Positions 10,276 through 62,380 of a stretch of DNA of 64,000 nt are shown in pieces (position 1 is the stretch's first letter; each line of letters starts with the position of its first letter). The DNA is from Psammoneis japonica (lineage: Eukaryota), in NCBI GenBank assembly GCA_008632985.1, contig QPGO01000218.1:1-64000 (forward strand). The letters run 5' to 3'. The translations under genes were made by a program, and so were the position numbers. The notes under the pieces are model-generated. The model had not been told where the DNA came from. It did not search any database and saw nothing but the letters and a program-made list of their open reading frames with translations.

Positions 10276-13200
10276 GGTCGCGCTGCAGTTTCAACTTATT
10301 GTTGTCTCTGCACTATCTACTTCCTACCGGTAGCTCTTGCCGAAGGAGACCAGCCACAAAAGAAAATGTGAATGGCATCAGCCCCCGCCGGCCCGAAGGC
10401 ATCGTCGTCATTTTTCGCGCATCGACGCGCGTTGGAGGGAGTCAAAAAACGGCGCGCTTTGATTTCATTTGGATCGGCCGGCTCACGTGAAGTTCGATGA
10501 GAACACACTTCACATCTGCATCACCACGCCAATGTGTCGAAAAGTGCAAAATTCCATCCGACGTTCAACATGAGCAATGCAACACCGACAACCACAGACA
10601 CTGACGCATCGTTGCATCGCTCGTTTCAGCAGTTTACGGCCTGCCCTGCATCCAAGAACACAAGCCACGTGCTGTGTCACTCACAATGAAAAGGTTTCTT
10701 GTGCAAGCAAATTGGGGTCACTTTCATGTCAATGTGTGTTTCAGCGGCGTTTTCATTGGTCGGGCCAACAAAGCCAGGATCCTGTGTGATGTGCAATGCA
10801 GAGAGGGAAAGAAATGGCATGCTTTGGATTGGCTTGCTTGTTCTCCTGGTGCTCAATCATGTCCACTCCAGCTGAAGTGTTTTTGTTTGACACGCCATTT
10901 CTGTGCCACATGCCAAAAATTTTGAAGAACCAAAATTGCCACACAACACCACAGAGAAACAAGTGCAGCAATTGGCAATGCAATGCCAGCCTTGACAAGC
11001 ACAAAAAAACACTGATGTGCACTGTCACATTTTGCTTGCTTCACCAGCTTTGTGGCTTGCACACCAGCGAGGAGAGTGCGCAACTCCAAGCTGTGCTTTC
11101 CAAACAAGGTTTAGAAAGAAATCCTTTGAGCCAGGAAAAGCATGCACTTTGCCAGAAGGAAATGTGTTGTCATCATCTGCAACTGTGCTGCCTTTGAGCA
11201 GTCCCTGTGTGCAGTTTCTGCAAGGGACCAAGAAACTTGTGTCTTTTCATCCCCGCCTTTCTTGAGTGCTCTTTTCATCATGCTGTTGTTGACATGCAAA
11301 CAAGGGGCTGCATTTTGGGGCACATTGAGTCCTCAGCTGATGAAGCAATTGCAAATGACAACAAGCCCTTTATGTGCACAGCTCACATGCTGAGAGGGCA
11401 GCTGAAACAGAAACACCAGCCAACCAACCAAAAAGGAGGAGGTGGCACAGTGTTGAAGAAAAATGTTTTGAATCATCTCCTGGTTTCAACACCATCAAAT
11501 GCCAAGATCAACTCATTGCATTGTGCCAACCAGCCAACAACCACCACTGCACTGCTTTGTGCAACAAATGGATCTTTGGCTCCAGCTGCAGCGGCTCACA
11601 CATGCTGCTCTTGCCACCAAGACAAAATGGCTGAACTGGTGTCTTTGCAATGATGTGAGCATGAGTTTGAAAAGGTGTCCAATGGCCCAATGGCACAAGT
11701 GTCTGCTGTGTTCTGAATCAGGCTGCCAAAGGTGGCAAAGAAATTCTTTTACAAAAATGGGAAGCAGAAAAAATTTGATGCAGACAGTTGTTTTTTGTGT
11801 GCGACAAATTGCGGCGCATGCTGCACTCTGTTTTTTCACACTCATGTTCCCAGTCAACAGACTCTTTTTGTTTGTTGGATTCTGTCTCATCATCCTCATC
11901 ATTTTTTCCTCATTTTCTTAATCCAGCTCTTCTTCAGTGTTGCTTTCCTCATCTCTGTGTGGTGAACTCCTCAAAACAGTCCAATGCACCACACTGTCAT
12001 TTTGCTTTAAGAATGGACTTGTGCCCATCATTGTTGAAATGCAGTGGATTTAGATGATGTGCTGTGCCCCTGCTGCAAGTCCCAGGCAGTTGCAGGGAAG
12101 GCAGCAGTTCATTTGGCTCAGTGTGGCTGCTTGTCATTGCAATTTGCTTGAGCAGCCCTCTCATTTGCAACTCAAGTGATTGCCCAGGCATGCACCACCC
12201 TTTGGCTCTTAGAACAGAGCTCAAACATGTTCCCTTGCAAACCCACCCACCAGCTTTCACAGCAGCAGGCAGGTTGTGCTCTCTCCATGCATCATCTTCT
12301 GCAGCTTTGTGGGGAATTTTTCATCCCATTGGAGCAGACAAAAACCATCTTCTGAGTCACAGGACAATGTGCAGCACAACTGCTGGCAACAACCTTCATG
12401 GCAACTTCATTGGTCAAAACATCCAATGCCAATTGTGAGCCACTTGCTTGAACCTCACTGGCAGCATCGCCTTCATTTGTTTGACAAACTTGACAGACTT
12501 GCCAGTCATTCAGCAACTCAAAAACATTGGCCACAACTTGAAAATGCGTTGTGACCACAGGGGCATGTCTCAGCCAGTTGTTGTGAAGGGCTCACATTGC
12601 TTGCCCATGGCATCTTGGCTGCTTCAGTTGAGCCTTGCATGCACAAGAAATTCACCTCATGGCAACCAAGCCAATGGGAAAGTCAGGTTCAACCCACAAT
12701 GAAGTTTGCATGGCTCCTGCTGCAATTCTTGCAGCTTGACTTTGATGGAGCCACTGACAACAATGATGGGATCTTGTGGATGGCAAACTCTTTCTTTCTT
12801 TCTTTCCTCTGTTGGCTTCCAAATTAGCATGCTTTCTGTCACCAAATGCTTCTTTGTTGTTTCCTCCCTTTTAAGATTTTTCAAACACTTGCACAGAGCT
12901 GTGCTCATTGACAATGTTGTTGTTGTCTGTCACCAATGCACTGGCACCAACTCTCTTGTCTTTGTCATGATTCACTCCAGCCACATTGATGGGCTTCATT
13001 TCCTGACAGATGGCTGACTTCATGTGCACTTCAATGCCACCTGCTTCTCCACTGCCATGTCCAGGTGATCACCACAGTGCCCAACATTCCTCTGCCTTCA
13101 GCGGGGACCTTGTTTGGTTGCTGCTGCAGCAATCACAACACATGAACTTGGTTGTTGAGCTGTGATGCCATTCTCTTGGAGCAGCAGCCCACAGGTGCAA

Positions 13201-15810
13201 AAATGCTGTGGCCCAATGACTCAAATGCCTGACAGCACATTTCCATGCAGCAGTTCTTGCCCAGAGTGATCTCATGTGGCATGCGGCAATGCCGCTGTTC
13301 AAAGCAAGGAATGCAGCCATCCTTTGTGAAGACACTGGTCGGTTTGCAAAACTTTGTCAATGGCAGTGTTTTTTGTTTGACAACTGCACCCTTGTTGTTT
13401 TCAGGATGGCATGCATCCATGAACAGAACATGTTTTGAGCAACACTTCACAGACAGACACCTTTGGAAGGAGATTTGGAGCTGGGCAAGAGGGGCAACTT
13501 TTGCACTTGCAGAGCACAGGTCCAATGAAGATGGTCCTGACCAACAACATTGCCACACACAATTGCCACCATTGCATCCTGAGGCTCCTTGGGATGGAGG
13601 TGACTCTCTCATCAAGAAAGGAGCCAACTTCAAACCTCAAAGAAATGCGCCAGTGGTGGAAAGATTGATGCACGCAGCAGAGAGCTCAATTTTCCGGTGA
13701 ACAAAGGAGGGGTCGTCCATGACTGGGAGATCAGAAATGGGAGCACTTGATTGTGTCATGGGTCGGTCATCAAGAATGATGTGTTTCACGTGCAGAAACC
13801 ATGCTGGTTCTTGCAAAAAAATGCCAATGAACAAAGCAAATGGAAGACAGTCCATTGATGTCAAAGAAGGGCACGCGCTCACACTTGTCAGTGCTGCAAC
13901 AGAAGCAGTGCTTTCACCCCATGGAGTGAAGGACTTGATTGGCTGATGGGAACAAAGAGGGTTGTTGAAGATTGAAAAGTGTGCTGGGTGCAAGAAACTC
14001 AGAGATGTGACAAAGCATTTGTTTGGGGTGTTTGCTGAAGTGCACAGAATTTGCACTGTGTCTTGTGAAGATGTTGTGAGCTTTAGAGGCTTGCCACTTC
14101 TATGGTCTGTGATCCATCCATGTCAGTCACGTCAGAGGTGTCTTTGACATCAACCTCACTGAGTCAGCACAAGCTGTTCTTTGTGCGCACACACACGCAC
14201 GCTCGAGATGCAGTCTGACCATCTGTGCATTCCGTGGCTGACCGTGACACACTGGAATCCATGTAGAAATTTCTTGGATCTGCAGAGAATGCAAAAAAGA
14301 TCAACGTGCATGCAACCCACAAGGAGTCAACACCAGTCATTTTCCACTTGGCAACATTGCTTGACATGCTGAAACACCATTGATTGATGGAAATGGCCAG
14401 AATGGTCTTGGGAGACCTGGCAAAATGCAGTCTGAGAAAGGCAACATCAGCACAGGAGCGCACACGCAGAAACACATGCAGGGGTTGCTGGCAGGCAGCT
14501 GCAGCACATTTGTGTGGAGCTCATGCATGGATTTGTTGTGCAGTCATTTGCTGGCTGGTTTCATCTTTCCTTTCCCCATCTTTGGTGATGATCATGTCCT
14601 TTGTGCTGGGGGGTGCAACCACATCATCTGGAAAACATTGTTGCTCTTGTTCAGAACTCACTCTCTCTTGTTCAGAATCCTGTGTTCTTGACAAGTCCTT
14701 GACAATTGTTCACAAAGGGAAATTAACAAGTGTTTCAAGGCTCCAAGTGGGAATTGACAGCCAATGTGGTGAATCGGTCTCATCGTGCACGCACTTTTGA
14801 CAATTTGTCATGTCTGCTCATTTTTGACATGATTTTTGATTCTGTCCACACTCAAGCTGACCTCACAAGTGGGAAACAACAGTCAATGAAACTTGTCACT
14901 TGCATTTGTTTCCACCTTGACAACCGTGTGTTGGCAACAACTTTCTGACATTGTTCATTTTTGACAACAACAGCAACAATGTTCAGTTGTCTTGTTGACC
15001 TGATTGTGCATCGGCTGTGTGCCGCTTGTCATCTGACTTGCAAATGTTCCATTTTGTTGTTTCTACACCAAGTGCCAAAAATGCTCCCTTTTTCCCATCC
15101 TTTTTTTCACATTGCACCAGTTCCTGTTGTCCTTCCCAGTCCCCACACACAATGGGTGTCCTGTTTTGGTCCTCTTGTGTCCTCCCTTGTGACCACTCTT
15201 GCTCTCTCCATGACCCCACTCTTCTTGCTCTCTCTACATTCATCCACAACAGGCAACAATGTCATCATCCTGCATTGATCTGTCTTAAGTTCTCACTGTT
15301 TGGCAGGCCAAAGCATTGTCTGCAACAAGAGAAAACTTTGTGCAAATGACAAGGTTTGTGCATGTCTTGTGTTTCTTACAATCTTGTCTCATGCACAGCT
15401 GCTGCTGCTCACCTTTGTGCCCTCCCCACTGCCCGTCTTCTGTTTTAGCTCAGTCTGCATGTCCAGATGTCTGTGTGCAAAGATTTGCGCAAGTGTTGGT
15501 CCTTTGCATTGATTGCCTGATCTCCATGCATTCGCCACTTGTTTCCTCTTTCTCACCTTGTGTCCCACATTTTGCTCCATCCCATCTGCAATGCCGTTGC
15601 CTGTCCCTGCTGCTCTCATTGTCAGATGTTGGGTGCAACTTGAGTTTGCATTGTTGTGTCTTGCAAGGCAGCAACAACTCATGTTTTTGGCAAAAAGGCG
15701 AGCCTGTCTGTCAGTTGATTCCCATCAGCATCTCTTTTTCAGCAACAGTTTTGTTTAAAAATCAATGTTTGTGTTGTGTCATGATGGTTTGAAGGATTTG
15801 AAACAACTTT

Positions 15811-16177
15811 TGCACTGTGCTCGAAGAACGAGTGTAAACGAAAGTAGAACAGTGTACGAAAAGTGGAAATTGTGAGACCAAATTTTGCTCTGTGATTTTT
15901 GGTTTCTCCGAACGAGTTCTCAATGGCCTGAAGCTTCTGTGCTGCTTCTACAGACAAAAGGCCTTTCGGAGAACATGTTTGTGACAACAGATTGTCCGGG
16001 TGCGATTGCCATTGACACGCAAGATGTCAACATCGTCAATCGATCGCACCTGCAATTCTCGACATCCGATCAACTCTGTGTGATCGTTCTGTCCTTTGCA
16101 CGCATCCACGACTGTGGTGCGATTGACACACAAACAACACACAATCACAAACATGTGTGTGACAGTCGCATGCTGCA
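15811..16177 (-). repeat. 3' LTR of the Gypsy element
   Basis: Ungapped 367-nt match to 20172-20538 with 30 mismatches. Adjacent to the polypurine tract at 16178-16189. Confidence 0.93.
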
Positions 16178-19100
16178 TTCGCCTCCCTAATTGCACATTG
16201 GAGTCATTTGCAAGTGGATTGTTCGACGGACATCGACAGTGTCAACAATGTCTCCACTTTCACTGCATTGTGCCATTGGCAATGACTGTTGTTGTTTTGT
16301 GTGGGCAATGTGGGGCCGTTCCAATTTCCGAATGTCTTTTGAGAGTGACATTGTTTGTTTCTCACTTAACATGCACATGTGTGGCATTGCGTCGAGCATT
16401 CTCATTGACGTTCTTGTTGACATGAACACAAGGACTAATTGTCCTGGAGCAAGTGTTTTTCCTGACCATCGATTGTACACAGCATCGTGCCCAGTGCTTA
16501 ATGTGCGCTCTCAATTGTGGCGTTCACTTGCTTGCTTGTGGATTTCATGCAGTTTGGCGGGCTTGCTTTGTGTGCCATGTTGCTCTGCTGCACTGCCACG
16601 TTTCACAAGTGACAATGAACGATGGTCAAAGACATTGTGACCATTTCGTCTTGACAATCAATCCTGTGATGGTCATGAATTCCATTGTGGATTTTTTTTT
16701 TTTGCACTTCAACCATCTGTCAGTTGGATTTTAATCGTCATTTGGACGTTTCTTTCTGACACACCGGCGTCATTTTGTCATTCCGAAGGCACTGGTTTCG
16801 TGCACTGAGTGGACAAATGTCCATTTTTCTTTTCTTTTTCTAGATCTTTGGCACATCTCGTGTGTCGACATGATGTACATTTTAATGTCTTGCCTCGTAC
16901 ATTGTACAATACAACCGTACGGGTGTTGTGAGATTGTCTTTTGCCAGTGTGAAGTGGATACGTATAATGTACACCAATCTGTCACTGTTTTTTCCTAAAT
17001 CGTCCTTTAAAAAGGCGATTTTATCCTTGTGACATGAGCATTTTTCGATCTCGCTCGCCTCCACGAAAAGTGTTCGTATGATATGTCGCGTCCGACAATT
17101 TGGAGGGAATGTCTTTATCCCGTTTTAACGGTAGGACATTGTCGTAGGATTCAATTTTCTATAGTAAGTCGGCTGATCGCGTCTATCGCGACGATGTTCG
17201 CCTTGCCCTCGTTGTATTCTAATTCGGGACTGAAGTTGTCAACGTATGACTTTGTCCGTTGTGTCTTATGATCCGTATATGTATAAATCTGTTGGCCAAA
17301 CAGTATATTTCGGAATTTTATAAGTGTTTTCACTATGGACAGAAGTTCTTTTTTCCGTTGTAACGTATAATATTGAAATCCGTGTATGATAACAATATAG
17401 TTTTTGATTTGATACGCTCCATATTTTCGGAGACTTTTCGTTCCGTACTTGTACTTTTGCCGTTTGACCTTTATTGAGGTGAATTTGGCTAGTGTTGTAC
17501 AGGAGATCGTTGAGACTTACATGTCTCGATAATGGCAACGTATGACAACGAGATGTCGTAGTGTTCTTTACGTTTTTCTCGTGTTGCGATTGCTTGAATC
17601 GCCTCCATTTTTTTTGTAATCGATTGCATATCGTTACGTATGGAAGTCTTGACAGTTTATTTCAAGTTAAATAGTGAAGGACTTTTGTTGTTAACCTTCT
17701 AAGCGACTGTTCTAGTCGTTTGAATGCCGTGTTAAGCTGTTGCTTGTACAGGTGATGTTTTGAAGTTACTTTTGTCAGGCACAAACGATCACATGTAGTC
17801 GTTCTGACAACTTCAAACCTGTTATGAGTTCACTCAAGTGTTGTATAAAAATATCTGGGGCTCTATAGATTCTCATTGGAAGTCCACAGTGCTCATTTTC
17901 TCCCCACGGCATGATTTTCGTGTGAGCACGACGTGTGCTTTTTTTATTTGACATGGTGGCATTCCATGTTTGAATCAAATAGATTACATGTGTGAAACGT
18001 TCTTGCTTCAATGGTGTTTCCTGAACATTGGGTAAAGGATACACCACCTGTGTGAACCTTATGCTAAGCTTCTGAGTGTCGGATGCGGTCGAACTCGACC
18101 TGTTTTCTTTGGACAATGAGTCTCAGAGCGACTTGTTCAGAGCAACTTCATTCTTAAGACTTCAATCTTTCATAATAGGTCAAACTCCTTTTGATTGGAC
18201 GCCTCCAAAGACTGTGATAGGAGAAGGTTCTCACGCGTCGTGGAATCGCGTCAGATTTTCCACGATGAGATCCACTGATGCTTCCCACACATTCGTCTGA
18301 GGAACTTTTCAAAACGATTTCAACCTCTTAAGAAGAAGATTGAGTTGGTTGTGTTCATTTGGGTTAGATGCATCGCCGCAGTTGTCACTTGATTAAGATC
18401 GATGGCGTGATGGGTGTGAGTCGAGGACCATTGGTTCCGTCATTGACTCCATTCACGGCGTCACATTTTTCAATGTGATCGGTTTTCAGCTTGAAAACAT
18501 CGGCATCGAAGAGTGTATGAACATTCTTCATAAGGTAATTGCTTCTTCCCATTAGATTTCTTCATTTGCGTAGTCCAATGTGACTTGCAGGACTGGACAT
18601 TAAGTCGCGTCCCATGATCACATCATTTGAACCTGAAGAAAATTTGGTGTTTTCAACACACACTGTTTGAATGTCAGCATGCCTTAAATTTCGCATGGTG
18701 AGAACTGAATTCGGTGTTTACTGTCAGTCGTAAAGAGCTCACCCTTGGTTTCCCAAGTTTTTGGTGGCGGATTCTTGTGTTCTCAACTTTCGCACGAATT
18801 TGCGCAAAATTATGGTTGACGATGTTCCGTCATCGACAGGAACACGTAGATGCTTTTTTCTCTCCTTTCCCAAGAAAGCATTCATATAAATGATGACTCC
18901 TGGACTAGCATGAATTATTTCTGCCTTCTTTCTAGGCTTCCCAACATCCAGTGAAGCATGTGGTTCGTGAACAGACCAAAATTGTTCTTCGGATTCAGTC
19001 TGGATCATCCGATCAAATTGGCACTTTTCTTCACTGAGGGCATCAGAATCTGATTCTTTGCCCTCATGCTCTTTTTCTTTGTTCAAGGAACTCGCTTTGA

Positions 19101-20171
19101 GCATTTTTTGAACCGCCTGATCAATCATGACGTTCATCTCTTTTTTTGCGAGCGGCATTTTCGTTGTCGCGACGCGACCGCGTGCGATTGCCATTTGAAC
19201 GGTGCATTTTTGGGTCTCTTTCAGAGTCACCCTTGCACTCTTTTGCCAGTTCATTTTTAGAACAGCTTCAATCCGTGATGCAGGTGTTCTTTTTTCAAAG
19301 ATGAGACCTTGCATTCACTTTGGATTGTTCTGGCACCATGTGGGAGACCATTTTTGGAACCAAATTTGGAACCTTTTTTTATTTTGGAACCAACTGCGCT
19401 GTCAGAGCCTGAGTTGATGTGTTTTTTCGTCACGGACGTCATGAACGACCTTTAGATGACTCAAAACTTAATCAGCTCATCAAGGATGAGTTGCAACAGT
19501 TGATTGTTTTGGACAGTAGACTGATGCTGCCATCCTTGCGGTGCGAGTGACAGCTGATAAATCAGCGCTCGGTTTCCCGCTAGATTCGACTTAGAATCCA
19601 TCTGAGGGTCGCGTGGACTCTCATCATTGACCTCTTGGGTCTAACAGAGGCTTTCTTGCTGTCAAGCAGCTCTGGTTTCTTCAGATCGTCTTGAAAACAA
19701 TGACTCTGATTCTGAAGTGCAATTCTTGGAAAGACATGAGATGTGAGACTCTTGAGGTGCTTTCCAACGGTTCCATCTTGCTCTTGGACTCGAGGCTCGT
19801 TGATTCGGTCTCCAAAACTCTCCAACAGTCTCTCCTTGCACACCAGACGCATTTCTCGGACCTGATCGACTCGGAACTTGCATTCTCTGCAACCATGACT
19901 TGGTGTAGATTTTTTGACAATGCGGTGCACTTGAGAGCCCTTGATCCTTGGGTGCTTGGAACAGACCGCATTAGAGCGAATCCTCTTGTCTGGCAGACGA
20001 AAAACAGCGTTCCATCTTGAGGCACTGCTCGGCTTGAGCTTCTTCCGCTCGGAAATCGATTCCAGCAGAACTGATGCGATTCGTTCCTGTTCACAGAAGA
20101 ATTTGCAAAGGCACATTAGTTAAAAATTTTCATTTTCCGTGCTTTTTACCTTCTGTGGTGTGCACACACAA

Positions 20172-20538
20172 TGCACTGTGCTCGAAGAACGAGTGCAAAC
20201 GAAAGTAGAACAGTGTACGAAAAGTGGAAATTATGAGATTAAATTTTGCTCTGTGATTTTTGGTTTCTCCGAACGAGTTCTCAATGGCCTAAAGCTTCTG
20301 CACTGCTTCTACAGACAAAAGGCCTTTCGGAGAATGTATTTGTGACAACAGATTGTCCGGATACGATTGCTGTTGACACGTGAGATGTCAACATCGTCAA
20401 TCGATCGTATTTGCAATTCTCGACATCCGATCAACTCTGTGTGATCGTTCTGTCCTTTGTACGCATCCACGACTGTGGTACGATTGACACACAAATGATG
20501 TACAATCATAAACATGCATGTAACAGTCGCATGCTGCA
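20172..20538 (-). repeat. 5' LTR of the Gypsy element
   Basis: Ungapped match to 15811-16177, followed by TSD CTTT. No clear primer-binding site is recognisable. Confidence 0.93.
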
Positions 20539-20704
20539 CTTTGATGAATCATTCAGTCATTGATGTCATGCGTGCATTTGGCAAATTTAATTTTGTCACA
20601 TTGGTGTGTTCTTGTTGAGATTGAAACTTTCACACTCATGCTCCACACTCCCAGCTCCAGGACTTCAATCAACACCTTTTTGCCATTTGGTGTGTTCATT
20701 GACC

Positions 20705-21350
20705 ATGCCGCCAAGAAAAAGGAAGAAGCTGAACCCACAAGGTGCTGGCCGCAACAATGCCAGTCACACCAGTGCCGCCAGTGGCCGTGATGGAGGTGGT
20801 GGCCATGGTGGAGGTGGTGCTTGTGGTGTTCAAGAGCAAGGTCAAGGTCCTCCCAGGCAGCCCAGGCAAGGCTCTAGGACAAGCCATTGGTGACATCAAG
20901 GCTCTTTGTCTGGAGCTGCTCCGCCAGCTGGTGACCCATGATCTGCCACTGCTGCTGCAGCCTCCATCAATGAAGAAGCCAATGCCTTTGATGATGTGTT
21001 TGACAACTTTTCCCCTGCACCAGTTCAACAAAAAGATTGTGACTTTCTCAAGGGGTGCAGTGTGAAGTCCTTTGCCACAAGACTCCTTTGCTGCTCAGAG
21101 CCTCTGAGCACCATGCCACCTGTGGCATCAACCCAAAAAAAATGTCTGGCAATGAGTGCAGAATGTGGCTGTTGCTTTGCTGGCAGATGCATGGCCTTTG
21201 CAAAAACCAAGACAAACAGATGTGCAAGCAGCTGCAGCAAAAGCATGAAAAAGCTGGCAGTGCAAAAATTGCTGCTGCCAACAAGAAGATCACCTCTCTC
21301 CAGAAAGCTCAGAAACAGACCCTTTGTGATGCCAGCAAAATGACAATTGC
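20705..21350 (+). pseudogene. Decayed ORF (basic NLS-like and Gly-rich N-terminus), probably transposon-associated
   Basis: MPPRKRKKLNPQGAGR...GGGGHGGGGACG continues in frame through TGA stops into AAAASINEEANAFDDVFDNF. The pattern fits CpG decay of Arg codons. Confidence 0.4.
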
Positions 21351-21489
21351 CAACTTTGTAAAGAAAGTGGGCAACTTGGGCTCAAAGGTGGGTTGTGCTC
21401 TGTCCTTCTGTTCTCTCTTGCTTTTCCATCCAAACAAGAGACAGGGAACACCATTTGTTTCCATTCACTGACTCCCTGCCCTGGTTGTT

Positions 21490-23335
21490 GTCAGCTCCCC
21501 TGGGACACAATGGAGGCACCCGAGGCCATCATCCAAAGACAACTGGGCACTTGCGCTGTCACATGGCCACAGAAAGCTCCCTTGTCTCTGCAGGTGGGGT
21601 GGCTGGGCCAAAGCAAGCCAATCACATCAGAAAGAAAAGGGGCTCCATTGGCAAAAGACAAGGCTTTCTTTCCCAACCATTGTTGTTCTTGCCTCCTCAG
21701 GGGCCTGATGGATTCTCTTGTTGTGCCCATCCCAAGACAACTGAGTGCTTGCACTGTCACACAGATGGCTCCCTTGTGTCTTTCTTGCAAATTGGTTCTT
21801 GGCTGGGCCAAACCTGGTCATGTCAGAAAGACAAGGTGCTGCATTGACACAATGCAAGGTCTTTGCTTCCCAACCATTGGTTTTCTTGTCTCAGCAAGTG
21901 TGGTGTCTGGGGGCAAACCCTGCAATGTCAGAAAGCAAGGTGCTGAATTGACACAAGACAAGGCCTTGCTTCCCAGCCATTGTTGTTGTTGATTGTTCTG
22001 GGACCTTGTGGAGTCACCAAAAGTCATCCCAAGACAACTGATCACTTGCACTGCTGCACAGATGGTTGTCTTGTCTCTGTGGGTGGGGTGGCTGGGCCAA
22101 ACCCAGTCATCAGAGAGACAAGGTGCTGCATTGACTCAAGACAAGGTCTTTGCTTCCCAGCCGATGTTGCTGTTGACTCCTCTGGGATCGAATGGAGTCA
22201 CCAAAAGCTGTCCCAAGACAACTGAGCACTTGCACTGTCGCACAGATGGTTTTCTTGTCTCTGCAGGCTGGCTGGCTGGGCCAAACCCAGTCATGTCAGA
22301 GAAACAAGAAGGTGCTGCATTGACAAAAGACAAGGCCTTCGCTTTCCAACCATTGTTGTTGTTGTGTCTTCTAGAATCCAATGAAGTCACCAAAAGCCAT
22401 CCCAAGATGACTGAGCACTTGCGCTGTTGCACAGATGGTTTTCTTGTCTCTGCAGATGGGGTGGCTGGGCCAAACCCAGTCATGTCAGAGAAACAAGGTG
22501 CTGCATTGATGCAAGACAAGGCCTTTGCTTCCCAACCATTGTCAATGTTGAGTGTTCTGGGATCCTGTGGAGTCACCAAAAGTCATCCCAAGACAACTGA
22601 TTGCTTGCACTGTTGCGCAGATGGTTTTCTTGTCTCTGTGGGTGGGGTGGCTGGGCCAAAGAACCCAGTTGTGTCAGAGAGACAAGGTGCTGCATTGACA
22701 GCTGTTGTTGGCTCCCCTGGGATCCAACAGAGTCGCCAAAAGCCATCCCAAGAGGACTGAGCACTTGCGCTGTTGCACAGATGGTTTTCTTGTCTCTGTG
22801 GGTGTGATGGCTGGGCCAAACCCAGTCATGTCAGAGACACAAAGAGGCTGCATTGACACAAGATGAGGCCTTTGCTTCCTGGCCATTGTTGTTCTTGCAT
22901 TTCTGGGACACAATGGAGGCATCCCAAGCATCCCAAGCACCCCAAGACAACTGAGCAATTGCGCCCCTGTTGCACAGATGGCCTTCTTGTCCTTGCAGGT
23001 GGGGTGGCTGTGAACCAAACAACTCAGTCATGTCAGAGAGACAGGGTGCTGCATTGACACAAGACAAAGCCTTTGCTTCCTGACCATTGTTGTTGTTGCA
23101 TCCTCTGGGACCCATTGGAGTCATCCAAGGCCCTCCCAAGACAGCTGAGCACTTGCACTGTCGCACAGATGTTTCCCTTTTCTCTGCAGGTTGGCTGGCT
23201 GGGCCAAACCCAGTTGTGTCAGAGAGACAAGGTGCTGCATTCTTGACACAAGACAAGGCCTTGCTCCCCAACCACAGTTGTTGGTGTGTCCCTTGTAACC
23301 CACTGGAGTCCTCCAATGCCATCCCAAGGCAACTG
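21490..23335. repeat. Tandem satellite of about 10 diverged units of about 185-190 bp
   Basis: Core cccaagacaactgagcacttgc..gcacagatgg..cttgtctctg..ggtggctgggccaaacccagtcatgtcagag..acaaggtgctgcattgacacaagacaagg recurs near 21532, 21731, 22027, 22212, 22401, 22586, 22746, 22941, 23134 and 23323. Confidence 0.92.
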
Positions 23336-24253
23336 CACACCTCTTTTGCCACATCTGTGGGCCCGATGCTTCCACACCTTGTGCAGCTGGACATCTTCTC
23401 ATTTGTGGAGGAATCACACAAGGGGCTGCTGCCACTCAAGACAAGGCTTGCAGCTTCCCAAATCAGGAGTGCAAAGACATCACAATTGGGCCAACCCACC
23501 TGACAAATGCAGACTGAGTGCATTTGGGATGCATGTCATGCAGGCAGCAACTCAAACCAATGTGCGCATTTGTGGTGATGATGATGATCTAGCTTGGCAT
23601 TTGGCAAATGTTTGCTGGGACATGGAGACACCACCATCAGATGCTCCATTTTAGTTTCTCAAGAAGCAGCCCTGGCCTGTGCATCATGCACCATCCACCT
23701 GGCAAGCATGTTGCTCCAGTTGGAGACACCAAGACATGTCATCAAACTCATCACCAGAATGAACCCCTTGGAACTGAGGATGTGTCACTGGCAAACTCTG
23801 GCCATTGTCTTCATTTGTGGCAATGGTGACAGGAAAGAAAATCAAACAATCCTCCCAGTCTCTGTTGTCTGGTGATGGCTTTCCAAGCAGTGGTGCTGTT
23901 GCTTGCTTTGTTGGATGCAAAGACCATGCCTTGGCAAGTTTAACTCCAAGCTGCTCTTCCTGCCATTCCCAGTGCTTCTCTTGCTTCCTGAAGCACTGGG
24001 GGTGTGCTTTCCAAAGTCATCATCAGGGTTCATGCTAAAATGAAGAAAGAAGAACACTGGAGACACATTTGAAAATGTGTTTGTGCAGCATGCCTGTTGT
24101 GTTGTTGTTGTTGTTGTTGTCACACATCCAACCAGGACAACACAGTGGATTGTGACAGGGGTGTGTCATTGTTGTTGTTGGATGTTAGATCGGAGGATGA
24201 GTTGTGCAGCACCAGCAAGGAAAAGGACAGGTGCAGGAGAAACAGAGCAAAGC

Positions 24254-24447
24254 AAAGGCAGAGAGCTGACAAATGGAAGGAAAAAGGAAGAAATGAAGCT
24301 GTTCTTGAGAGGTTTAAAATGAGGACAAAATGAGCCACACAGGTGATTTAAACAAAGGCAGAGATCTGACAAATGGGAAAAGGGAACAAATGAAGCTGTT
24401 CTCAACAACAGTTCAAAATGAGGACAAAATGAGCCACACAGGTGACT
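24254..24447. repeat. About 100-bp unit, two tandem copies plus a dispersed copy at about 26438-26556
   Basis: aaaggcagaga.ctgacaaatgg...aaatgaagctgttct...aaaatgaggacaaaatgagccacacaggtga is repeated. Confidence 0.8.
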
Positions 24448-27400
24448 TTACATGATGCTTTTGGGCCACGTCCGAGTGGCCATTGCTGTGATTTTTGACA
24501 AAAATGCTGCTGCCTCACAACCCACAAAATCATTTCTTTTTCTTTCCAAAACACAGACAGGCAATGCAACTCAAGTTGACCATAGGATTGGTTGCAGCAG
24601 TGGCAACATTTAACACCAAGTGCAAGAAACACCTGGAGAGCATGGGGAAACATTGCTGTGATCATGAGGTGTGTGTCCCACCGGCAAAGAAAGGCATCTT
24701 CATTCAATGCCTTAAATCATCATCTGATCTTTTTGCTCAATTTCTTTGTTTCTTCTGCATCTCACACTGCAGCAAATGTTTTGAAGGTCAGAAGTGGAAT
24801 GCACTCAGCAGACACCCATGAACTTGGATGGTGCATTTGACAAAGATGACAGAGAAAAGCATGCACTCTTTCTTTGGTTTGCAAGTGCGGCAATCCTTGC
24901 TTGTCACGATCATCTGCAACGATCAAATCGACTCAATGTTTGCATCAATTCATCTAAAAGTTTCAACCAATGGCTCAAACACCACCCTGTGTGACTTGGG
25001 GAGACTGTCCTGGGCAGTCATCAGGTGTTAAAAATTTGTGCGAGTTCCTGAGGAGCCCCAAGCAGTTGGAGATTGGATCCTGTGAACATGCCAGCTCCAA
25101 CCAAATTGATTTGGAGCACGGAGCACAGCTCAAATTGTGCTCATGTTGTCTGCAAAGAGGTGTTTTTAAGTGGCCAATGCTTCTAAGATTTTGGGATCAA
25201 ACTGTAGAAAATGCTGCCAGCAACAATTAAATGACAAGAGCTGGCCAGAGCCCTTCTGTTGGACACCCATTCTCTCATCATTTTGCAGGCACGGAATGAT
25301 GCACAGTTTGTTGACAGCAGTGTGGGTTGAACACTGTGCAACAGATCAGGAAGCATCTGCTGCATGGGAGGACATTTAAAGTGAGCAACAGCAAGAATCA
25401 CCAAGCACAATCAGTGCCATTTAACCACAAAAGGTGGGTTTGATCCAGGACTTGGTGTGAGCATGCAGGCAGTTCTCTCTGCTGGGCTCCAAGCACTGGA
25501 GATCATTGCTGCAATGATGAGATTGGCTTTGTTAAAGAGCAATGTCACAAAGTGGCATGAGCTGGTGCTTTCAATGGCCAATTGCAACTGGGAGTTGTCT
25601 CCCATCTTGTGAGTTGTCTGCTGTGACCAACCCACCCAACAAGAGAATCTGCAGTGGATTCGTCGGACCCCCTTCCATTGCAGTCTCCAAAATGTGTGTG
25701 CATTGAAGGTCCAAGCACTGTGAACATTGTGTGCATGGTGGAGAAGTCAAAGAAGCCAGTGATCACACAGAAACTGACCTGCATCACATCCCTTCTCACC
25801 AACACATGTGCCTTGACTGCTGCTCCCCATGAAATCCAGTGTGTGGAGACCAGTCTTCCGGCATTGAAGTGGTGGCCTCATTTTGATTGCACTGCCAAGG
25901 TCTGTGACAATCATCCATGTCATGTGTGAGACAAGCAAGCCACCCAAAAGAGTTCACATCACACCCAAAAAATTCTTGCAAGCTTGCAAAAGAGGATTTC
26001 ATGATCAAAAGTGCAAGAAAGGGATCAATCCTTCTGCGGAGCCAAAATGACACCGTGCCCATGCCAAATGAAACAAGCAATGCCTGTGAGCACACATTGC
26101 ATGTGAAAAATTCTTACAATGACAAGCAGCTGTTTCACACTTGCCTTGGTTGTTTCACACATCACCATCACACTGCAGCTCTCCTGGCAGAAGTGGAAAA
26201 GAGGACATGACATGTTGGTGCTTCAACAGTGATTTCCTGACTGATTGTTGCAATGACTCTGCCTGCAAAGCTCTCTCAAACAACAGCCAAAGCAAAAACA
26301 CTGTATTTCAAGAGTCTTGACAACTGGTGCATTGTGCAAAGCTTGCTTGAGTGCCTTTCAGAAACAAGCTCACTTTCTTTCACCACAACAGATTGAGCCA
26401 GCCAGCAAACTGCAGCACACAGCAAAAACACTCATCTGAGCCACACAGGTGACTCAAACAAAGTCAGAGATCTGACAAATGGAAGGAAAAAAAAAACAAA
26501 TGAAAGTTCTTGACAAGTGTTTTAAATTTGGACAGAATGATCCTCCACACAGGTGGCTCACAATGAGCAAAAAAGATTCAATCATTTGTGACTTGACAAT
26601 TGCTGAGAAACAAAATTGACAACTGTGTGTGTTGAAGATCTGTGGATGCAGTCAGCATGCATGTGTGAAAATTTCAGTCATTGACAAGTTGCACTCTTGT
26701 CAAGCACGGAAACATGTTGCAGACAATTGGCGCATTTTCCAACCATTTGACAAAAGCTTTTTGAATCTCTGGGGTGACTTCATGAGGGCATTGACAAGGT
26801 TGCACTGAAGACCACATGATGCCTTCCTCTTGTCCTTGACCAAGGCTGCTCCAACATTTTTGCTTTTTTTCATTTGGCAATCAATGCACAGTGCTTTTGT
26901 TTGCACCCAGCACTTTTGCAAAGGTGTTGAAAAAACCTCAGGTGTGCCGTTTGACTTGTGGAGAAAATCAAAGATTCCTGCTGCAGCAGAATGGACAAAA
27001 GATCTTTTGTTGTCAGCACAAAAATCTTTGCCATCGTTGTTGGCATGCACCAACATTTTGCCCAGCTGCTTTGTATTTGCGTGGCAGCTTCCATTGCTTT
27101 GGGCAACACAAAAATGCAAACCTGGACAGTCAAAGCAACATCAGGCATGGACAAAGTGCAGAGCACCAAGGCCACAGCTTGTTGCTCAGGGACATTGGTG
27201 GAGGACAAGATGGCATCTCTTGTTCTTGTGGCAGCCAGCATGGCACTGTGCTTGTGTTGACAATCTTTGTGGGTTTTTACAAAATGAGCCAATGGCTCTG
27301 TCTGTGGCATGAACTTTGGTGGCAGTTGCCAAGTCAGAAGGAGTGGTGGTGTCCAAAGGAGCAGCAGAGGGAGTGACGGCGGCATTGTCAGAGGTGAGCC

Positions 27401-28946
27401 ATGCTGTTGGAGCAAGTGGCTGCATGTTGCAGATTCAGCAGGAGCTGGGAGGGCCAGGATTTCCACGGAAAACACAGATCTTTGCATTTGCAACTCCAAA
27501 CTGCTTCTTCTCTTTGTCATGGGGCATTGGAGTGAGAAGTGAAAAGGAAATGGGCAATGCAGCAGATGTGTGCTCCAGCCCCAGGCAGGACTCTGTGTGA
27601 CATGAGCCTGCAAAGTTCCACACTGTGGCCAGTGGATGCACTCATCATTCCAGCAAAGCCACACAGAAATGTGTGGGCAACATGCGGCACATGGCAAAAA
27701 AACATCAATGTCACAGCTCAGCAGCATGAGGCCCCACCTGGCTGGAGCTGGAGTGCATCAGCAGAAGAGGAATGTTTTTGGTGCACTCAACAGAAAACTT
27801 GTCACTTCAGTGGCTGTGAAAATTGAGTGCCAAGAGTGACTTCATCTTAGCTGGGGGCAAAGAACAAACACACAAGCTCCAAAAAACGAAAAAAGTGGCT
27901 GTGTGGCCACCATCTTTTGTGCAGAAAAGACAACACATCAAAACCACGTTGTTTGGCACATCAAACTCCTCTTCAATTTGTCATTTTTTTAAATTGCATG
28001 GCAAGCTCACATGAAAAATGCAAAGTTTTGTGCACACTCACATCTTGACTTTGTAAAAATCAAAAACTGAAGGAGCCAAACACAAATGGGCCATTTGATG
28101 GATTGTGTGCTGTCCAAGTGTGTCGCCTGCTGGAGCTGGAGCCAGCCCTTTGCTCTCTTTGCTCATGAGGCAGCAAGCCAGAAATGGCACCATTGGTCAA
28201 AGTGCTGTTGGGCACAACAAAGCAGAAGAATGTGAAATTGAGAGAGTCAACAAGATTGAGAAGGTGTTGTTGTTCTGTGATCTTTTGTCTTTGTCATTGC
28301 AGCAAGTGTTGCTGCTCATTGACACTTAAAAGATCTTGATCCTTGAAAGAGCTCCAGCAGTTTTTTCATGAAGTGCCAGGCCTCTGATGGTTTTTGTCCA
28401 GACCTCAGACCTTGCAAGTCATGATGGGCGTGCAGAGCAGCAGCCGCACCCTGGTCTTTGTTCCTGTTTTGAACAAACAGAGTGAGCAAAACAAGCCTCC
28501 CACTGGGGTGGCACTGACCACTGCTCAGCATGCTCCATGCCACATTGTTGCGCTGCACACAGGGTTGAGCACAGGGTGCATGTGAGCCACTGACACATTG
28601 GTGCACATGACCAAAGCACATCTCCGGTGGTCAAAGTGCGCCACTGATGTCCAATGCTGTGCACATTGTTCATGAACAAAGGATGGTGAAACATCGTTGC
28701 TGACAGCACAAAGTCTCATCTTTTTTGCAGCAGAGTCACTGCGCAAGTTCCCAACCACACCAGAACTCTCAATGAGTTGATGCAAGATCTCTTAAACTTA
28801 GACCTCGTGTCTGCTTGTCTGCTAGTCCGATCCCCGCCGCGCCGCACTTGTGTCGAAGTGGGTGGGTTTCGATTGCGACATGGCTGGCACAATGGCGCAC
28901 GGCACGATTGTGAACGTTGCCTTCGTGGAATGCATCCTTCTTGGAC

Positions 28947-43079: not shown

Positions 43080-43410
43080 CCCACATGCCTCATCAATGCT
43101 CTGTGCCCCAGTGGTTCACCACCCTTGATGCCTTTGGGGACCATGCCTTTGCCTGCAAAGGAGGTGATCCAAGTTGTCCTCCAAAGGTGATCATGATGCT
43201 GTCTTCATGAGATCATGTCACACAAACTCCAGGGGTGCCTCTTGCAAAATCACGTCACTCACCCAATGACATCCACCTTGAGCCTGCACACCTTCTCCTG
43301 AATCACCCTCTTCTCCACCCAGCCGATGTTGACATTGGCACCCCTCCTCTCACTTCCCTTGCCACCCCCTCCCACCATCATTGCATTGCTGGTGATGTCG
43401 GCCCATCCCC
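43080..43410 (+). mobile_element. Remnant of a restriction-like endonuclease domain of a CRE/NeSL-type non-LTR retrotransposon
   Basis: LDAFGDHAFACK followed by HLEPAHLL..LLHPADV (compare RPAD) and IAGDV. Confidence 0.55.
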
Positions 43411-43422
43411 AAAGCCCCCCCC

Positions 43423-43437
43423 NNNNNNNNNNNNNNN
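43423..43437. other. Assembly gap (15 N)
   Basis: Run of N after a poly-C tract. Confidence 0.99.
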
Positions 43438-59099: not shown

Positions 59100-59149
59100 T
59101 ATGTAGGAATACGGTAGGGATCGTGACTCAAATAAGAAGCGTTGATCGT

Positions 59150-62100: not shown

Positions 62101-62380
62101 GCTGATGCTCTGTGAGCAAACATTGCTCCCACCTTTGTTGCACTCTACACAACCATGGCCTACACTGTTGTGTTGTGCTTCAAGCCATTGTGCCAAACAT
62201 TGCCACTGTGTTCTGAGCCACCTTGCTGGTCTCCAGGGGCAGGAAGGAGCAGGCACCCCCACCAGGCAGACAAGTGGCTCTGGGGCATTGGGGGCAGTTC
62301 ATCTTGACACTTGACAACCATGCATGATGACTCCACAGCATCATGTTGCTTGGAACAGCATAGAGTGACAACAACAGTGT
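59150..62380 (-). mobile_element. Possible highly decayed Helitron-like (PIF1 helicase-bearing) element
   Basis: Fragmentary minus-strand peptides YIIDES.GQ (about 59730), GSFGG (about 59640), LFPTREDVN (about 59330) and RHCSWEAVW (about 61180). No intact frame. Confidence 0.35.
60350..62380. other. TpA-depleted block 3
   Basis: Same CpA/TpG-rich, TpA-poor and CpG-poor signature. Normal composition resumes at about 62450. Confidence 0.8.

What the first reader, a model, noticed from the sequence alone, without database searches (positions are those of the whole stretch)
15811..20538. LTR pair records a TpA-specific A:T to G:C hypermutation, a 'reverse RIP'
Seen: hand alignment of the two 367-bp LTRs gives 30 mismatches, no indels, all transitions. 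At 12 sites one LTR has TA and the other has TG or CA (e.g. cctAaag/cctGaag, ttgTacg/ttgCacg). At 7 sites CA faces TG (14 mismatches, e.g. gcCAttg/gcTGttg), as expected if an ancestral TA was hit on opposite strands. The other 4 mismatches are also A/T versus G/C. All 20 CpGs are identical in both LTRs. Established: LTRs are identical at insertion, 5mC decay would give CG versus TG/CA differences, and fungal RIP creates TpA rather than removing it. Inference: a process targeted at repeats converts A to G in 5'-TA on both strands, for example by DNA adenine deamination (TadA/ADAT-type enzymes favour TA) or mutagenic processing of a modified base. I know of no described genome-defence system with this spectrum.
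Basis: partly seen in the sequence, partly recalled or inferred. Interest (0 to 1): 0.95.

Follow-up and report, generated by a model that had tools for sequence, protein, structure and literature searches.

The report
TpA-erasing hypermutation in diatom transposon islands
The two once-identical ends of a jumping gene in a diatom genome differ almost only where a T-A letter pair became T-G or C-A, and the transposon-rich blocks around it have lost nearly all T-A and C-G pairs, which points to an undescribed DNA-mutating process acting on silenced DNA.

Summary
The two 367-bp LTRs (15811-16177, 20172-20538) differ at 30 positions. All are transitions, there are no indels, and all 20 CpGs are unchanged. 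26 of the 30 lie in TA-versus-CA/TG sites.

Contigs of the family's abundant variant polarise 18 of 19 LTR differences as A:T to G:C. A related gypsy polymerase, P0126, has replaced 17 of 17 conserved tyrosines (TAY) with His or Cys while keeping Arg, Trp and Gln.

The finding is larger than the LTR pair. About 41% of this diatom window consists of sharply bounded blocks with CpG o/e about 0.1 and TpA o/e about 0.05. CpA/TpG is nearly doubled there and the total number of YpR steps is unchanged. The element is a degenerate Ty3/gypsy copy of a high-copy family, inserted in such a block. It has lost TpA but no CpG yet.

78 related elements from metagenomes show no such depletion.

RIP-like C-to-T change, CpG decay, RNA editing, an assembly artefact and a genome-wide bias are each contradicted.

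The mechanism is untested. I found no description in eight literature searches.

The parts
15811..16177 (-). LTR, 367 bp, TG...CA ends. It is the window-left copy and the 3' LTR of the minus-strand element. It is the more mutated copy, with 4 TpA and 20 CpG.
20172..20538 (-). LTR, 367 bp. It is the window-right copy and the 5' LTR of the element. It is the less mutated copy, with 14 TpA and 20 CpG.
16178..20171 (-). Internal region of a degenerate Ty3/gypsy element. It holds a gag-like ORF (19580-20119, 0 Tyr in 180 residues), a protease-like ORF (18739-19314, 1 Tyr), a reverse-transcriptase remnant (17775-18122), an RNase H remnant (17151-17516), no recognisable integrase, and a polypurine tract next to 16178. 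There are 11 stops in the 364 RT-RH codons.
15807..15810 (.). Target-site duplication CTTT, left copy.
20539..20542 (.). Target-site duplication CTTT, right copy.
16900..17800 (-). Centre of the element, where TpA is not depleted (o/e 0.7-1.0). The two ends of the element have TpA o/e 0-0.4.
10642..15810 (.). Block depleted of both TpA and CpG (CG 47, TA 19 in 5.2 kb), left host of the insertion.
20539..28783 (.). Block depleted of both TpA and CpG (CG 55, TA 34 in 8.3 kb), right host of the insertion. It includes a tandem array of about 186-bp units at 21.6-23.5 kb.
37679..44697 (.). Block depleted of both TpA and CpG (CG 38, TA 14 in 7.0 kb).
44700..45939 (.). Second segment with normal CpG but few TpA (CG 70, TA 13), lying inside a depleted block. 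It holds a 250-aa ORF without Tyr.
45942..49685 (.). Block depleted of both TpA and CpG, with a 236-bp normal interruption at 49269-49504.
60364..62421 (.). Block depleted of both TpA and CpG (CG 14, TA 11 in 2.1 kb).

Best explanation
The feature is a degenerate Ty3/gypsy LTR retrotransposon, 4.7 kb long and probably non-autonomous. Its sense strand is the minus strand. It belongs to a high-copy family and is inserted (target-site duplication CTTT) in a transposon island of a diatom nuclear genome.

Shown: after integration both LTRs lost most of their TpA dinucleotides through transitions, TA to CA or TA to TG (A:T to G:C). The changes fall equally on both strands. No CpG changed, and there are no transversions or indels.

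Shown: this is the early stage of a process confined to one compartment. Sharply bounded intergenic blocks, about 26 of 64 kb, have lost about 95% of TpA and about 90% of CpG. CpA/TpG nearly doubled there, while total YpR steps and G+C stayed constant. Genes and their short spacers are untouched.

Inferred: TpA loss is an active, post-integration hypermutation of double-stranded DNA in silenced or transposon chromatin. It runs at least 15 times faster than CpG decay and roughly 100 times faster than background. CpG decay then follows, presumably by ordinary 5mC deamination.

Inferred mechanism, with my odds. An enzymatic change of one base of the TpA step, fixed at replication:
- about 30%: thymine oxidation by a TET/JBP-type 5-methylpyrimidine dioxygenase (5hmU/5fU read as C);
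- about 25%: adenine deamination to inosine;
- about 20%: biased or error-prone repair (T:G mismatch glycosylase, or WA-motif polymerase tracts);
- about 25%: something else.
For: Spectrum: 26 of 30 LTR mismatches are TA versus CA/TG, against 0 of 40,000 random-transition trials that reached 26.

Direction, line 1. Contigs from the small runs X3 (record 18) and X4 (record 20) have every difference from the window listed. At the 19 LTR-mismatch positions in 20181-20427 they carry the 3'-copy letter at 15 and the 5'-copy letter at 4. That makes 18 of 19 derived changes A:T>G:C (9 A>G, 9 T>C) and 1 C>T. These contigs have TA at three CA/TG sites (20335/6, 20371/2, 20381/2). In the large run X1, A is read at 42-87% of depth at the second base of five such sites.

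Direction, line 2. Whatever the ancestor of a CA/TG site was (TA, CA or TG), at least one A:T>G:C change at a TpA is needed. Only a CG ancestor avoids this. That would mean 7 CpGs hit in both copies, 20 hit in neither and none hit once. With p = 14/54 per copy, about 10 single hits are expected.

Direction, line 3. Old blocks have TpA o/e 0.05 and CpG o/e 0.11. YpR steps number 236-245 per kb in every segment, depleted or not, and G+C is 47.7% against 47.9%.

Direction, line 4. P0126 is a 699-aa relative with no Tyr. At 362 columns conserved in 5 or more of 6 relatives it differs at 50: Y>H 10, Y>C 7, L>P 6, T>A 4, K>E 2. It keeps R at 27, W at 8 and Q at 11 columns.

Direction, line 5. The element's own gag and protease ORFs have 0 and 1 Tyr in 180 and 192 residues.

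Confinement to the blocks. Genic segments have CpG o/e 0.97 and TpA o/e 0.58. Block edges coincide with the element's ends and with gene borders.

Not a trait of the element clade. 78 related loci from metagenomes have TpA o/e 0.43-1.08, with only 4 short TA-poor segments in 366 kb.

Not low complexity. (CA)n or (TG)n runs of 4 or more units cover under 1% of any block.

Real DNA. High-depth contigs match the depleted single-copy flank with 0-2 substitutions in 357-1751 bases (records 1, 2, 3, 5).

Precedent for the favoured mechanism. In dinoflagellates a TET/JBP enzyme makes 5hmU, which is enriched at repeats and preferentially replaces T in TA and TC (PMC11572971, passages read).
Against: One of the 19 polarised changes is C>T. 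At 20301/2 the abundant variant has CA, like the 3' LTR, so the 5' copy's TG needs either two steps or a TA parent.

At 20196 about 90% of family depth in X1 has C, so there the majority state is CA, not TA.

The element's RT-RH frame has 11 stops (7 TAA). One replaces a Trp conserved in 6 of 7 relatives, which needs two G>A changes, so C:G>T:A changes also occurred in this lineage. Contigs of the abundant variant are identical to this copy over 16992-17227, so those defects probably predate amplification.

The 'abundant variant' is a k-mer path from low-coverage contigs of the same sample. It is not a true consensus or outgroup, and 1655 rows of the difference table were not shown.

The element's centre keeps TpA at o/e 0.7-1.0 for reasons unknown.

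Part of a depleted block is now single-copy by depth, so targeting of repeats is not shown.

No enzyme, modified base or mutation-rate measurement was available.
Confidence: 0.75

Rival explanations
1. RIP-like or APOBEC-like cytosine deamination. The ancestor had CA/TG (and CG at the double sites), and C-to-T changes created the TAs, mostly in the 3' LTR.
For: 22 of 30 mismatches have G/C in the 5' copy and A/T in the 3' copy. Clusters such as CCA/TTA and CACC/TATT look like deaminase clusters. A conserved Trp codon is TAA in this copy. Diatoms carry DNMT4, a relative of the fungal RIP enzyme RID, of unknown function (PMC9998398, passages read).
Against: Three-way polarisation gives 18 of 19 changes as A:T>G:C. 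The CA/TG sites would need CpG ancestors hit in both copies while 20 CpGs stay intact. The RIP index TA/AT is 0.19-0.48 in the LTRs and 0.05-0.10 in old blocks, the opposite of RIP. Old repeats are TpA-free. P0126 keeps R, W and Q and loses only Tyr and TA-containing codons.
Confidence: 0.05
2. The LTR differences predate this insertion or were imported. Recombination or gene conversion with other family members, or a chimeric assembly of a high-copy repeat, gave two LTRs of different descent. The pair would then record divergence between copies, not decay after insertion.
For: The family has depth 10,000-40,000 against about 70 for single-copy DNA, and 6233 contigs were laid, so donors abound. 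The window is a scaffold with a 15-N gap. The mosaic of TA-poor ends and a TA-rich centre could reflect conversion.
Against: A 4-bp target-site duplication flanks the pair. There are no indels or transversions in 367 bp, whereas family contigs differ from this copy by many transversions and indels. Even if true, the TA-specific A:T>G:C spectrum and the block-wide depletion stand. Only the timing claim (after insertion, rate estimates) would weaken.
Confidence: 0.1
3. Sequencing or assembly artefact. Modified bases (5mC, 5hmU, 6mA) in silenced DNA are miscalled, so true TA and CG are written as CA/TG.
For: The window differs from high-depth contigs by small indels (3 gaps in 1751 bases). I read this as a long-read assembly, but that is my inference, since the assembly method is not on record.
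Against: Contigs with k-mer depth 58-77 reproduce the depleted flank with 0-2 substitutions (records 1, 2, 3, 5). The contigs themselves show TA, CA and TG variants among copies. P0126, from another record, shows the same signature at the protein level. The library type of the runs is not on record, so this is not fully excluded.
Confidence: 0.03
4. A genome-wide mutation bias (TA and CG to CA/TG) that is visible only where selection is absent. Genes keep TA and CG by purifying selection.
For: TpA is also low in genes (o/e 0.34-0.61). Part of a depleted block is single-copy.
Against: Genic segments as a whole, including third codon positions and short spacers, have CpG o/e 0.97. The two-state segmentation finds no depleted stretch inside 3-10637, 28793-37676 or 49691-60356. 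Block edges are sharp. A young insertion inside a block still has CpG o/e about 1.
Confidence: 0.05
5. RNA-level A-to-I editing (ADAR-like) or editing of the cDNA during retrotransposition.
For: A-to-G with a 5' U/T preference is the known ADAR neighbour preference (recalled, not from a call).
Against: Both LTRs of one insertion are copied from one template, so editing before integration cannot make them differ. The changes are strand-symmetric, 9 A>G and 9 T>C on the same strand. Non-transposon-like DNA that is now single-copy in the blocks is equally depleted.
Confidence: 0.02

Closest known systems
Repeat-induced point mutation (RIP) of Neurospora and other fungi
   Same: Transition-only hypermutation that is specific to a dinucleotide, hits both strands and both copies, is linked to transposons, is far more intense than background, leaves compositionally distinct blocks beside normal genes, and may leak from repeats into neighbouring DNA.
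   Different: RIP changes C:G to T:A at CpA, creates TpA and makes DNA AT-rich. Here A:T changes to G:C at TpA, TpA is destroyed and G+C is unchanged. The chemistry cannot be cytosine deamination. Dependence on duplication, on a sexual stage or on a RID-type enzyme is unknown here.
Methylation-driven CpG decay (5mC deamination)
   Same: A self-complementary YpR dinucleotide is converted to TpG/CpA. The same blocks are also CpG-depleted (o/e 0.11).
   Different: It affects C, not A:T. In the young LTR pair 0 of 20 CpGs changed while about two thirds of the TpA positions did, so the two losses are separable in time.
CTAG depletion by very-short-patch repair in E. coli (Vsr correcting T:G towards C:G) - recalled, not from a call
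   Same: A repair activity aimed at deaminated 5mC turns TA into CA/TG as a by-product, giving context-specific A:T>G:C change.
   Different: It is bacterial, restricted to the CTWGG context, and a slow evolutionary bias, not hypermutation of a young insertion.
ADAR hyper-editing and A-to-G hypermutated retroviral genomes - recalled, not from a call
   Same: A>G with a preference for a 5' U/T.
   Different: It acts on RNA, hits one strand only, occurs before integration, and ADARs are animal enzymes.
Thymine hydroxylation by TET/JBP enzymes: 5hmU of dinoflagellates (PMC11572971, passages read) and base J of kinetoplastids (search listing only)
   Same: An enzymatic mark placed on T, enriched at repeats and transposons, with a reported preference for TA (and TC) dinucleotides, in another SAR lineage.
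   Different: It is known as an epigenetic mark, not as a mutagen. No 5hmU or TET/JBP enzyme has been shown for this diatom.
Polymerase-eta WA-motif mutagenesis in antibody hypermutation - recalled, not from a call
   Same: A:T mutations at TA/AA on both strands, in clusters.
   Different: It also produces many transversions, needs AID and mismatch repair, and is vertebrate and locus-specific.

Membership tests
Ty3/gypsy (Metaviridae-type) LTR retrotransposon | Two direct LTRs with TG...CA ends, flanked by a 4-6 bp target-site duplication | tested here: met
   The LTRs are 367 bp, 91.8% identical, with TG...CA ends. The duplication is CTTT.
Ty3/gypsy (Metaviridae-type) LTR retrotransposon | Polypurine tract before the 3' LTR and primer-binding site after the 5' LTR | tested here: inconclusive
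   A purine run AGGGAGGCGAA abuts the LTR on the minus strand. No tRNA-complementary primer-binding site was recognised.
Ty3/gypsy (Metaviridae-type) LTR retrotransposon | pol with protease, reverse transcriptase, RNase H and integrase, in that order | tested here: inconclusive
   RT_RNaseH scores 24.5 bits against a cut-off of 24.8. The read-through RT-RH finds 117 distant gypsy-type proteins, best 32% identity, and aligns with RT and RNase H motifs. A DSG-like protease motif was seen by eye. No integrase was found. There are 11 stops in 364 codons, so the copy is a dead, probably non-autonomous member.
Fungal RIP | C:G to T:A transitions | tested here: not met
   18 of 19 polarised LTR changes are A:T>G:C.
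Fungal RIP | High TpA/ApT and low (CpA+TpG)/(ApC+GpT) indices in affected DNA | tested here: not met
   TA/AT is 0.19 and 0.48 in the LTRs and 0.05-0.10 in the blocks. (CA+TG)/(AC+GT) is 1.2-2.0.
Fungal RIP | Triggered by sequence duplication, premeiotic, dependent on RID/DIM-2 | not testable with these tools
   No genome is held, and there are no experimental data.
5mC-driven CpG decay | CG facing TG or CA between copies; CpG o/e well below 1 | tested here: not met
   In the LTR pair 0 of 20 CpGs differ and CpG o/e is 1.0-1.2. The feature is met in the surrounding blocks (CpG o/e 0.11), so it is a second, slower process there.
RNA-level A-to-I editing before integration | Changes on the sense strand only, and identical in both LTRs | tested here: not met
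   There are 9 A>G and 9 T>C changes on one strand, and the changes differ between the two LTRs.
TET/JBP thymine-hydroxylase marking of repeats | A TET/JBP enzyme and 5hmU (or a derivative) in the DNA | not testable with these tools
   No genome or nucleoside data are available. Only the dinucleotide and repeat preference match (PMC11572971 passages).

The most novel reading that the evidence does not exclude
This diatom has an enzymatic DNA-editing process aimed at transposon islands that erases TpA by A:T to G:C transitions. It would be the first natural hypermutation directed at A:T pairs in any genome, a mirror image of RIP. One 5-methylpyrimidine dioxygenase acting on both T (in TpA) and 5mC (in CpG) could explain why exactly the two self-complementary YpR dinucleotides vanish together. 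Because TAA and TAG cannot arise, and Tyr codons turn into His or Cys codons, the process scrambles transposon proteins without making AT-rich DNA.
Probability: 0.4. Interest if true: 0.95.

Novelty: categorically new. Interest (0 to 1): 0.88.

Why it matters
All known DNA hypermutation systems that act on mobile elements (RIP, APOBEC/AID, methylation-driven decay) deaminate cytosine. A process that removes TpA through A:T to G:C change would be a new chemistry of genome defence or of heterochromatin mutagenesis.

It would explain a striking two-compartment genome architecture in an ecologically important algal group. It would also bias any LTR-based dating and any repeat annotation in such genomes.

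If an adenine-deaminating or thymine-converting enzyme that acts on duplex DNA lies behind it, that would be a natural A:T-to-G:C editor.

The question is directly testable: nucleoside mass spectrometry, mutation-accumulation lines, and a whole-genome survey of LTR pairs.

Tried and rejected
Whole genome: none is held for this window. A family consensus, genome-wide LTR-pair spectra and an enzyme search could therefore not be done.

Other copies in the window: none.

Exact-pattern scans for a conserved LTR stretch: 0 matches in metagenome contigs and 0 in viral contigs.

Pfam on 12 ORFs of the element gave only a sub-threshold RT_RNaseH hit. Pfam on 74 ORFs of at least 110 aa in depleted blocks gave no transposon domain.

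Protein search with the 250-aa ORF at 45125-45874: no hit at near lengths. Longer lengths were not searched.

RNA: no RNA holder is listed for the stretch.

Earlier findings of this scan: nothing by place, words or sequence.

Eight literature searches returned no paper that describes joint TpA/CpG loss or A:T>G:C hypermutation of diatom repeats. Supplements were not opened.

PMC11804724 was searched for mutation-spectrum terms and had none.

Strand-coordinated runs of CA versus TG outcomes along the LTRs, counted by hand: 9 runs against about 9.9 expected in the 5' copy, so no evidence for long single-strand tracts. All 4 non-TA changes lie on the same strand as the neighbouring TA change, which is only weakly suggestive.

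Microsatellite or low-complexity origin of the blocks: rejected.


Full report
**1. The observation**

The repeat finder and an ungapped alignment place two direct repeats at 15811-16177 and 20172-20538. They are 367 bp long and differ at 30 positions, with no indel and no transversion. Written as 5' copy > 3' copy, the differences are C>T 13, G>A 9, A>G 5 and T>C 3.

Each LTR has 20 CpGs and all 20 are shared. TA occurs 4 times in the 5' copy and 14 times in the 3' copy.

- At twelve mismatches one copy has TA and the other TG or CA.
- Seven sites have CA facing TG, which accounts for 14 mismatches.
- The other four (15878, 16000, 16049, 16050) are also A/T versus G/C. Each lies next to a changed TA site and on the same strand as that change.

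As a chance control I placed 30 random transitions on either LTR, 20,000 trials each. The TA-type count never exceeded 18 or 19, against 26 observed. CA/TG doubles never exceeded 4, against 7 observed.

**2. What the element is**

The LTRs begin with TG and end with CA, and a 4-bp duplication CTTT flanks them. On the minus strand a purine run abuts the LTR at 16178, as a polypurine tract would.

The minus strand carries these remnants:
- a gag-like ORF (19580-20119);
- a protease-like ORF (18739-19314);
- a reverse-transcriptase remnant (17775-18122);
- an RNase H remnant (17151-17516).

The RT-RH frame has 11 stops in 364 codons. Read through with X at the stops, it finds only distant gypsy-type polymerases: 117 hits, best 32% identity. 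No integrase is recognisable.

The family is highly repeated in the one sample that holds the stretch. Summed contig depth is 8,500-41,000 over the element, against about 60-115 over the lowest-depth flank, and 6233 contigs were laid.

Contigs of the abundant variant are identical to this copy over 16992-17227. The defects of the centre are therefore probably those of the amplified master, which makes this a non-autonomous family.

**3. The organism**

The window encodes:
- a photosystem II assembly factor Ycf48;
- a plastid-type FtsZ;
- a HIRAN-SNF2-RING helicase;
- a pseudouridine synthase;
- a DEAD-box helicase and LRR proteins, mostly as long uninterrupted ORFs.

The FtsZ finds diatom proteins at 83-93% identity. 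Named hits include Epithemia, Attheya, Chaetoceros, Seminavis, Cyclotella and Skeletonema. The window is diatom nuclear DNA. No whole genome is held.

**4. The wider picture: two compartments**

Dinucleotide statistics per kilobase are bimodal.

| Measure | Genic stretches | Depleted blocks |
|---|---|---|
| CpG o/e | about 1.0 | 0-0.2 |
| TpA o/e | 0.5-0.7 | 0-0.1 |
| CpA+TpG o/e | about 1.1 | 1.8-2.1 |

Several kilobases in the blocks have no TA at all.

A two-state segmentation on YpR steps gives depleted blocks at 10642-15818, 20530-28783, 37679-44697, 45942-49260, 49507-49685 and 60364-62421. Together they cover about 26 kb, or 41% of the window. In them CG+TA make up 3-5% of YpR steps, against 38-42% elsewhere.

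The number of YpR steps is the same everywhere, 236-245 per kb (my division of the counts). Base composition is also the same: G+C is 47.7% in blocks and 47.9% in genic DNA. This is what transitions CG>TG/CA and TA>TG/CA produce, and nothing else does.

The blocks are complex sequence, not microsatellite. Their long ORFs contain no tyrosine and many His and Cys. No transposon domain is recognisable in them any more.

The block edges coincide with the ends of the LTR element. The element is therefore a younger insertion into an old depleted block.

Within the element CpG is normal (o/e 0.96-1.2), but TpA is low. TpA o/e is 0.15 and 0.46 in the LTRs and 0-0.4 over about 0.7 kb and about 2 kb at the two ends. 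It is 0.7-1.0 in the centre, 16900-17650.

A second segment, 44700-45939, is likewise CpG-normal (70 CG) and TpA-poor (13 TA). TpA loss therefore comes first and CpG loss later.

**5. Direction of change**

Five lines of evidence agree.

(a) Three-way comparison. Three small runs of the same sample give contigs that can only represent the most abundant variant. For X3 record 18 (20123-20449) and X4 record 20 (20181-20427), the listed differences account for every difference reported (13 and 6).

- At the 19 LTR-mismatch positions within 20181-20427, these contigs carry the 3'-copy letter at 15 and the 5'-copy letter at 4.
- By parsimony 18 of the 19 changes are A:T>G:C (9 A>G, 9 T>C). 14 are in the 5' copy and 4 in the 3' copy. 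One change, 20301, is C>T.
- The contigs have TA at 20335/6, 20371/2 and 20381/2, where one LTR has CA and the other TG.
- In the large run X1, A is read at 57, 42, 67, 81 and 87% of depth at the second base of five such sites.
- At 20211, 20490, 20492 and 20503 both LTRs have CA where contigs have TA. At 20341 both have TG where contigs have CG.

(b) Logic of the CA/TG sites. From a TA, CA or TG ancestor, each such site needs at least one A:T>G:C change at a TpA. Only a CG ancestor avoids this. It would mean seven CpGs hit in both copies, twenty hit in neither and none hit once. A uniform rate predicts about ten single hits.

(c) Old repeats are TpA-free (section 4). A process that creates TpA would have enriched it.

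(d) A relative. P0126 is a 699-aa gypsy polymerase from another public record, and it has no tyrosine. I compared it with six relatives at 52-69% identity. At 362 columns where at least five of the six agree, it differs at 50. The differences include:
- Y>H 10 and Y>C 7, so none of the 17 conserved Tyr is kept;
- L>P 6, T>A 4, K>E 2;
- M>V, N>D, I>V and L>S, 1 each.

These are the changes expected from TA>CA/TG inside and across codons. It keeps Arg at 27, Trp at 8 and Gln at 11 columns, so there is no C-to-T signature and no CpG loss.

(e) The element's own gag and protease ORFs have 0 and 1 Tyr in 180 and 192 residues. Its TA-rich centre has 18 Tyr in 364 residues.

**6. Results that do not fit neatly**

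- At 20301/2 the abundant variant has CA like the 3' LTR, so the 5' copy's TG needs two steps or a TA-bearing parent.
- At 20196 about 90% of depth in X1 has C.
- A Trp conserved in relatives is a TAA stop here, which takes two G>A changes. Six further TAA stops lie in the TA-rich centre. C:G>T:A changes therefore also happened in this lineage, probably before amplification.
- The difference table shows only 40 of 1695 rows. Contigs were laid on whichever LTR they fit best. All runs come from one sample, which is probably the assembled one.

**7. Where the process acts**

It is not genome-wide. Genic segments as a whole, third codon positions and short spacers included, have CpG o/e 0.97 and TpA o/e 0.58. 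No depleted stretch was called inside them.

It is not a property of the element clade. 78 related loci fetched from metagenomes (366 kb) have TpA o/e 0.43-1.08 and hold only four TA-poor segments of 413-863 bp. Some of these loci are CpG-depleted without TpA loss (L044, L042).

It is strand-symmetric, and it differs between two LTRs of one insertion. It therefore acts on integrated duplex DNA, not on RNA or cDNA.

Whether repetition or a chromatin domain is the target is open. 12000-13600 is fully depleted yet close to single-copy depth.

**8. Rates** (my arithmetic, inferred)

- About 40 of about 58 TpA positions in the two LTRs changed, which is about 1.2 hits per site.
- 0 of 40 CpG positions changed. 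At most 4 of about 600 other positions changed.
- TpA change is therefore at least 15 times faster than CpG decay and of the order of 100 times faster than background.

That points to an active process. A replication bias would not be expected to give so large a difference.

**9. Further details**

The 75 TpA that remain in 22 kb of blocks are mostly TTAA (30), or TTAG/CTAA (20). These are either a poor substrate or are re-created from TCA/TGA.

Copies of the 186-bp tandem repeat at 21.9-23.3 kb differ most often at adjacent pairs by CA versus TG: 32 pairwise cases, against 14 for the next class. This is a fossil of the same process.

Three of the four differences between the window and single-copy contigs in the block are at YpR sites: TA/CA at 12825, CG/TG at 14790 and TG/CG at 15260.

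**10. Mechanism**

Nothing here identifies an enzyme. T>C in TpA and A>G in TpA are the same event seen from the two strands, so the sequence cannot say which base is attacked.

I favour an enzymatic base change in silenced chromatin. The candidates are:

- **Thymine oxidation by a TET/JBP-type dioxygenase.** Dinoflagellates use such an enzyme to place 5hmU on repeats, with a reported preference for TA and TC (PMC11572971, passages read). That oxidised thymine can pair with G is recalled, not from a call. The same enzyme class oxidises 5mC, which would tie the TpA and CpG losses together.
- **Biased repair.**

Diatom DNMT4 is related to the fungal RIP enzyme and has no known function (PMC9998398, passages read), but a cytosine methyltransferase does not explain A:T>G:C.

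**11. Novelty**

Eight full-text searches found no paper that describes joint TpA and CpG loss, or A:T>G:C hypermutation, in diatom or other repeats. The scan's own earlier notes hold nothing.

Known hypermutation of mobile DNA is cytosine-directed, so I rate this as categorically new. Two reservations apply: the active, targeted nature of the process is inferred, and a whole-genome analysis has yet to be done.

Noticed in passing
window 44700-45939: A 1.2-kb segment inside a depleted block has normal CpG (70) but few TpA (13). It holds a 250-aa ORF (45125-45874) with a Cys/His knuckle and no Tyr. The ORF has no Pfam hit and no homologue at near lengths. It is probably a second young insertion at the same early stage as the LTR element.
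   Followed up: partly
window depleted blocks (22.3 kb pooled): Of the 75 surviving TpA, 30 are TTAA and 20 are TTAG/CTAA. ATA, TAT and GTA contexts are almost gone. This reflects either a context preference of the process or re-creation from TCA/TGA.
   Followed up: partly
window 21600-23540: A tandem array of units of about 186 bp lies inside a depleted block. Its copies differ most often by CA versus TG at the same dinucleotide. Long artefactual ORFs arise there because TAA and TAG are absent.
   Followed up: partly
window 16900-17800: The centre of the LTR element keeps TpA at o/e 0.7-1.0 while both ends are depleted. This gradient suggests spreading from the flanks or LTRs, or a conversion tract. 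It remains unexplained.
   Followed up: partly
protein P0126 (public record, organism not given): This 699-aa open gypsy polymerase has no tyrosine. All 17 conserved Tyr are replaced by His or Cys, while Arg, Trp and Gln are conserved. The same signature therefore occurs outside this window, and there it left the frame open.
   Followed up: partly
loci L044 and L042 (metagenome contigs): These related gypsy elements have CpG o/e 0.11 and 0.27 but normal TpA (0.76, 0.81). This is ordinary CpG decay without TpA loss, presumably in other diatoms.
   Followed up: no
window 12825, 14790, 15260: Differences between the window and single-copy contigs of the run are TA/CA, CG/TG and TG/CG. They may be allelic polymorphisms of the same two processes.
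   Followed up: no
window 43423-43437: A run of 15 N marks a scaffold gap inside a depleted block.
   Followed up: no
window 7637-10101 (minus strand): A HIRAN-SNF2-RING helicase gene (Rad5/HLTF type, by Pfam domains) lies directly beside the depleted block that starts at 10642. This is probably coincidence.
   Followed up: no
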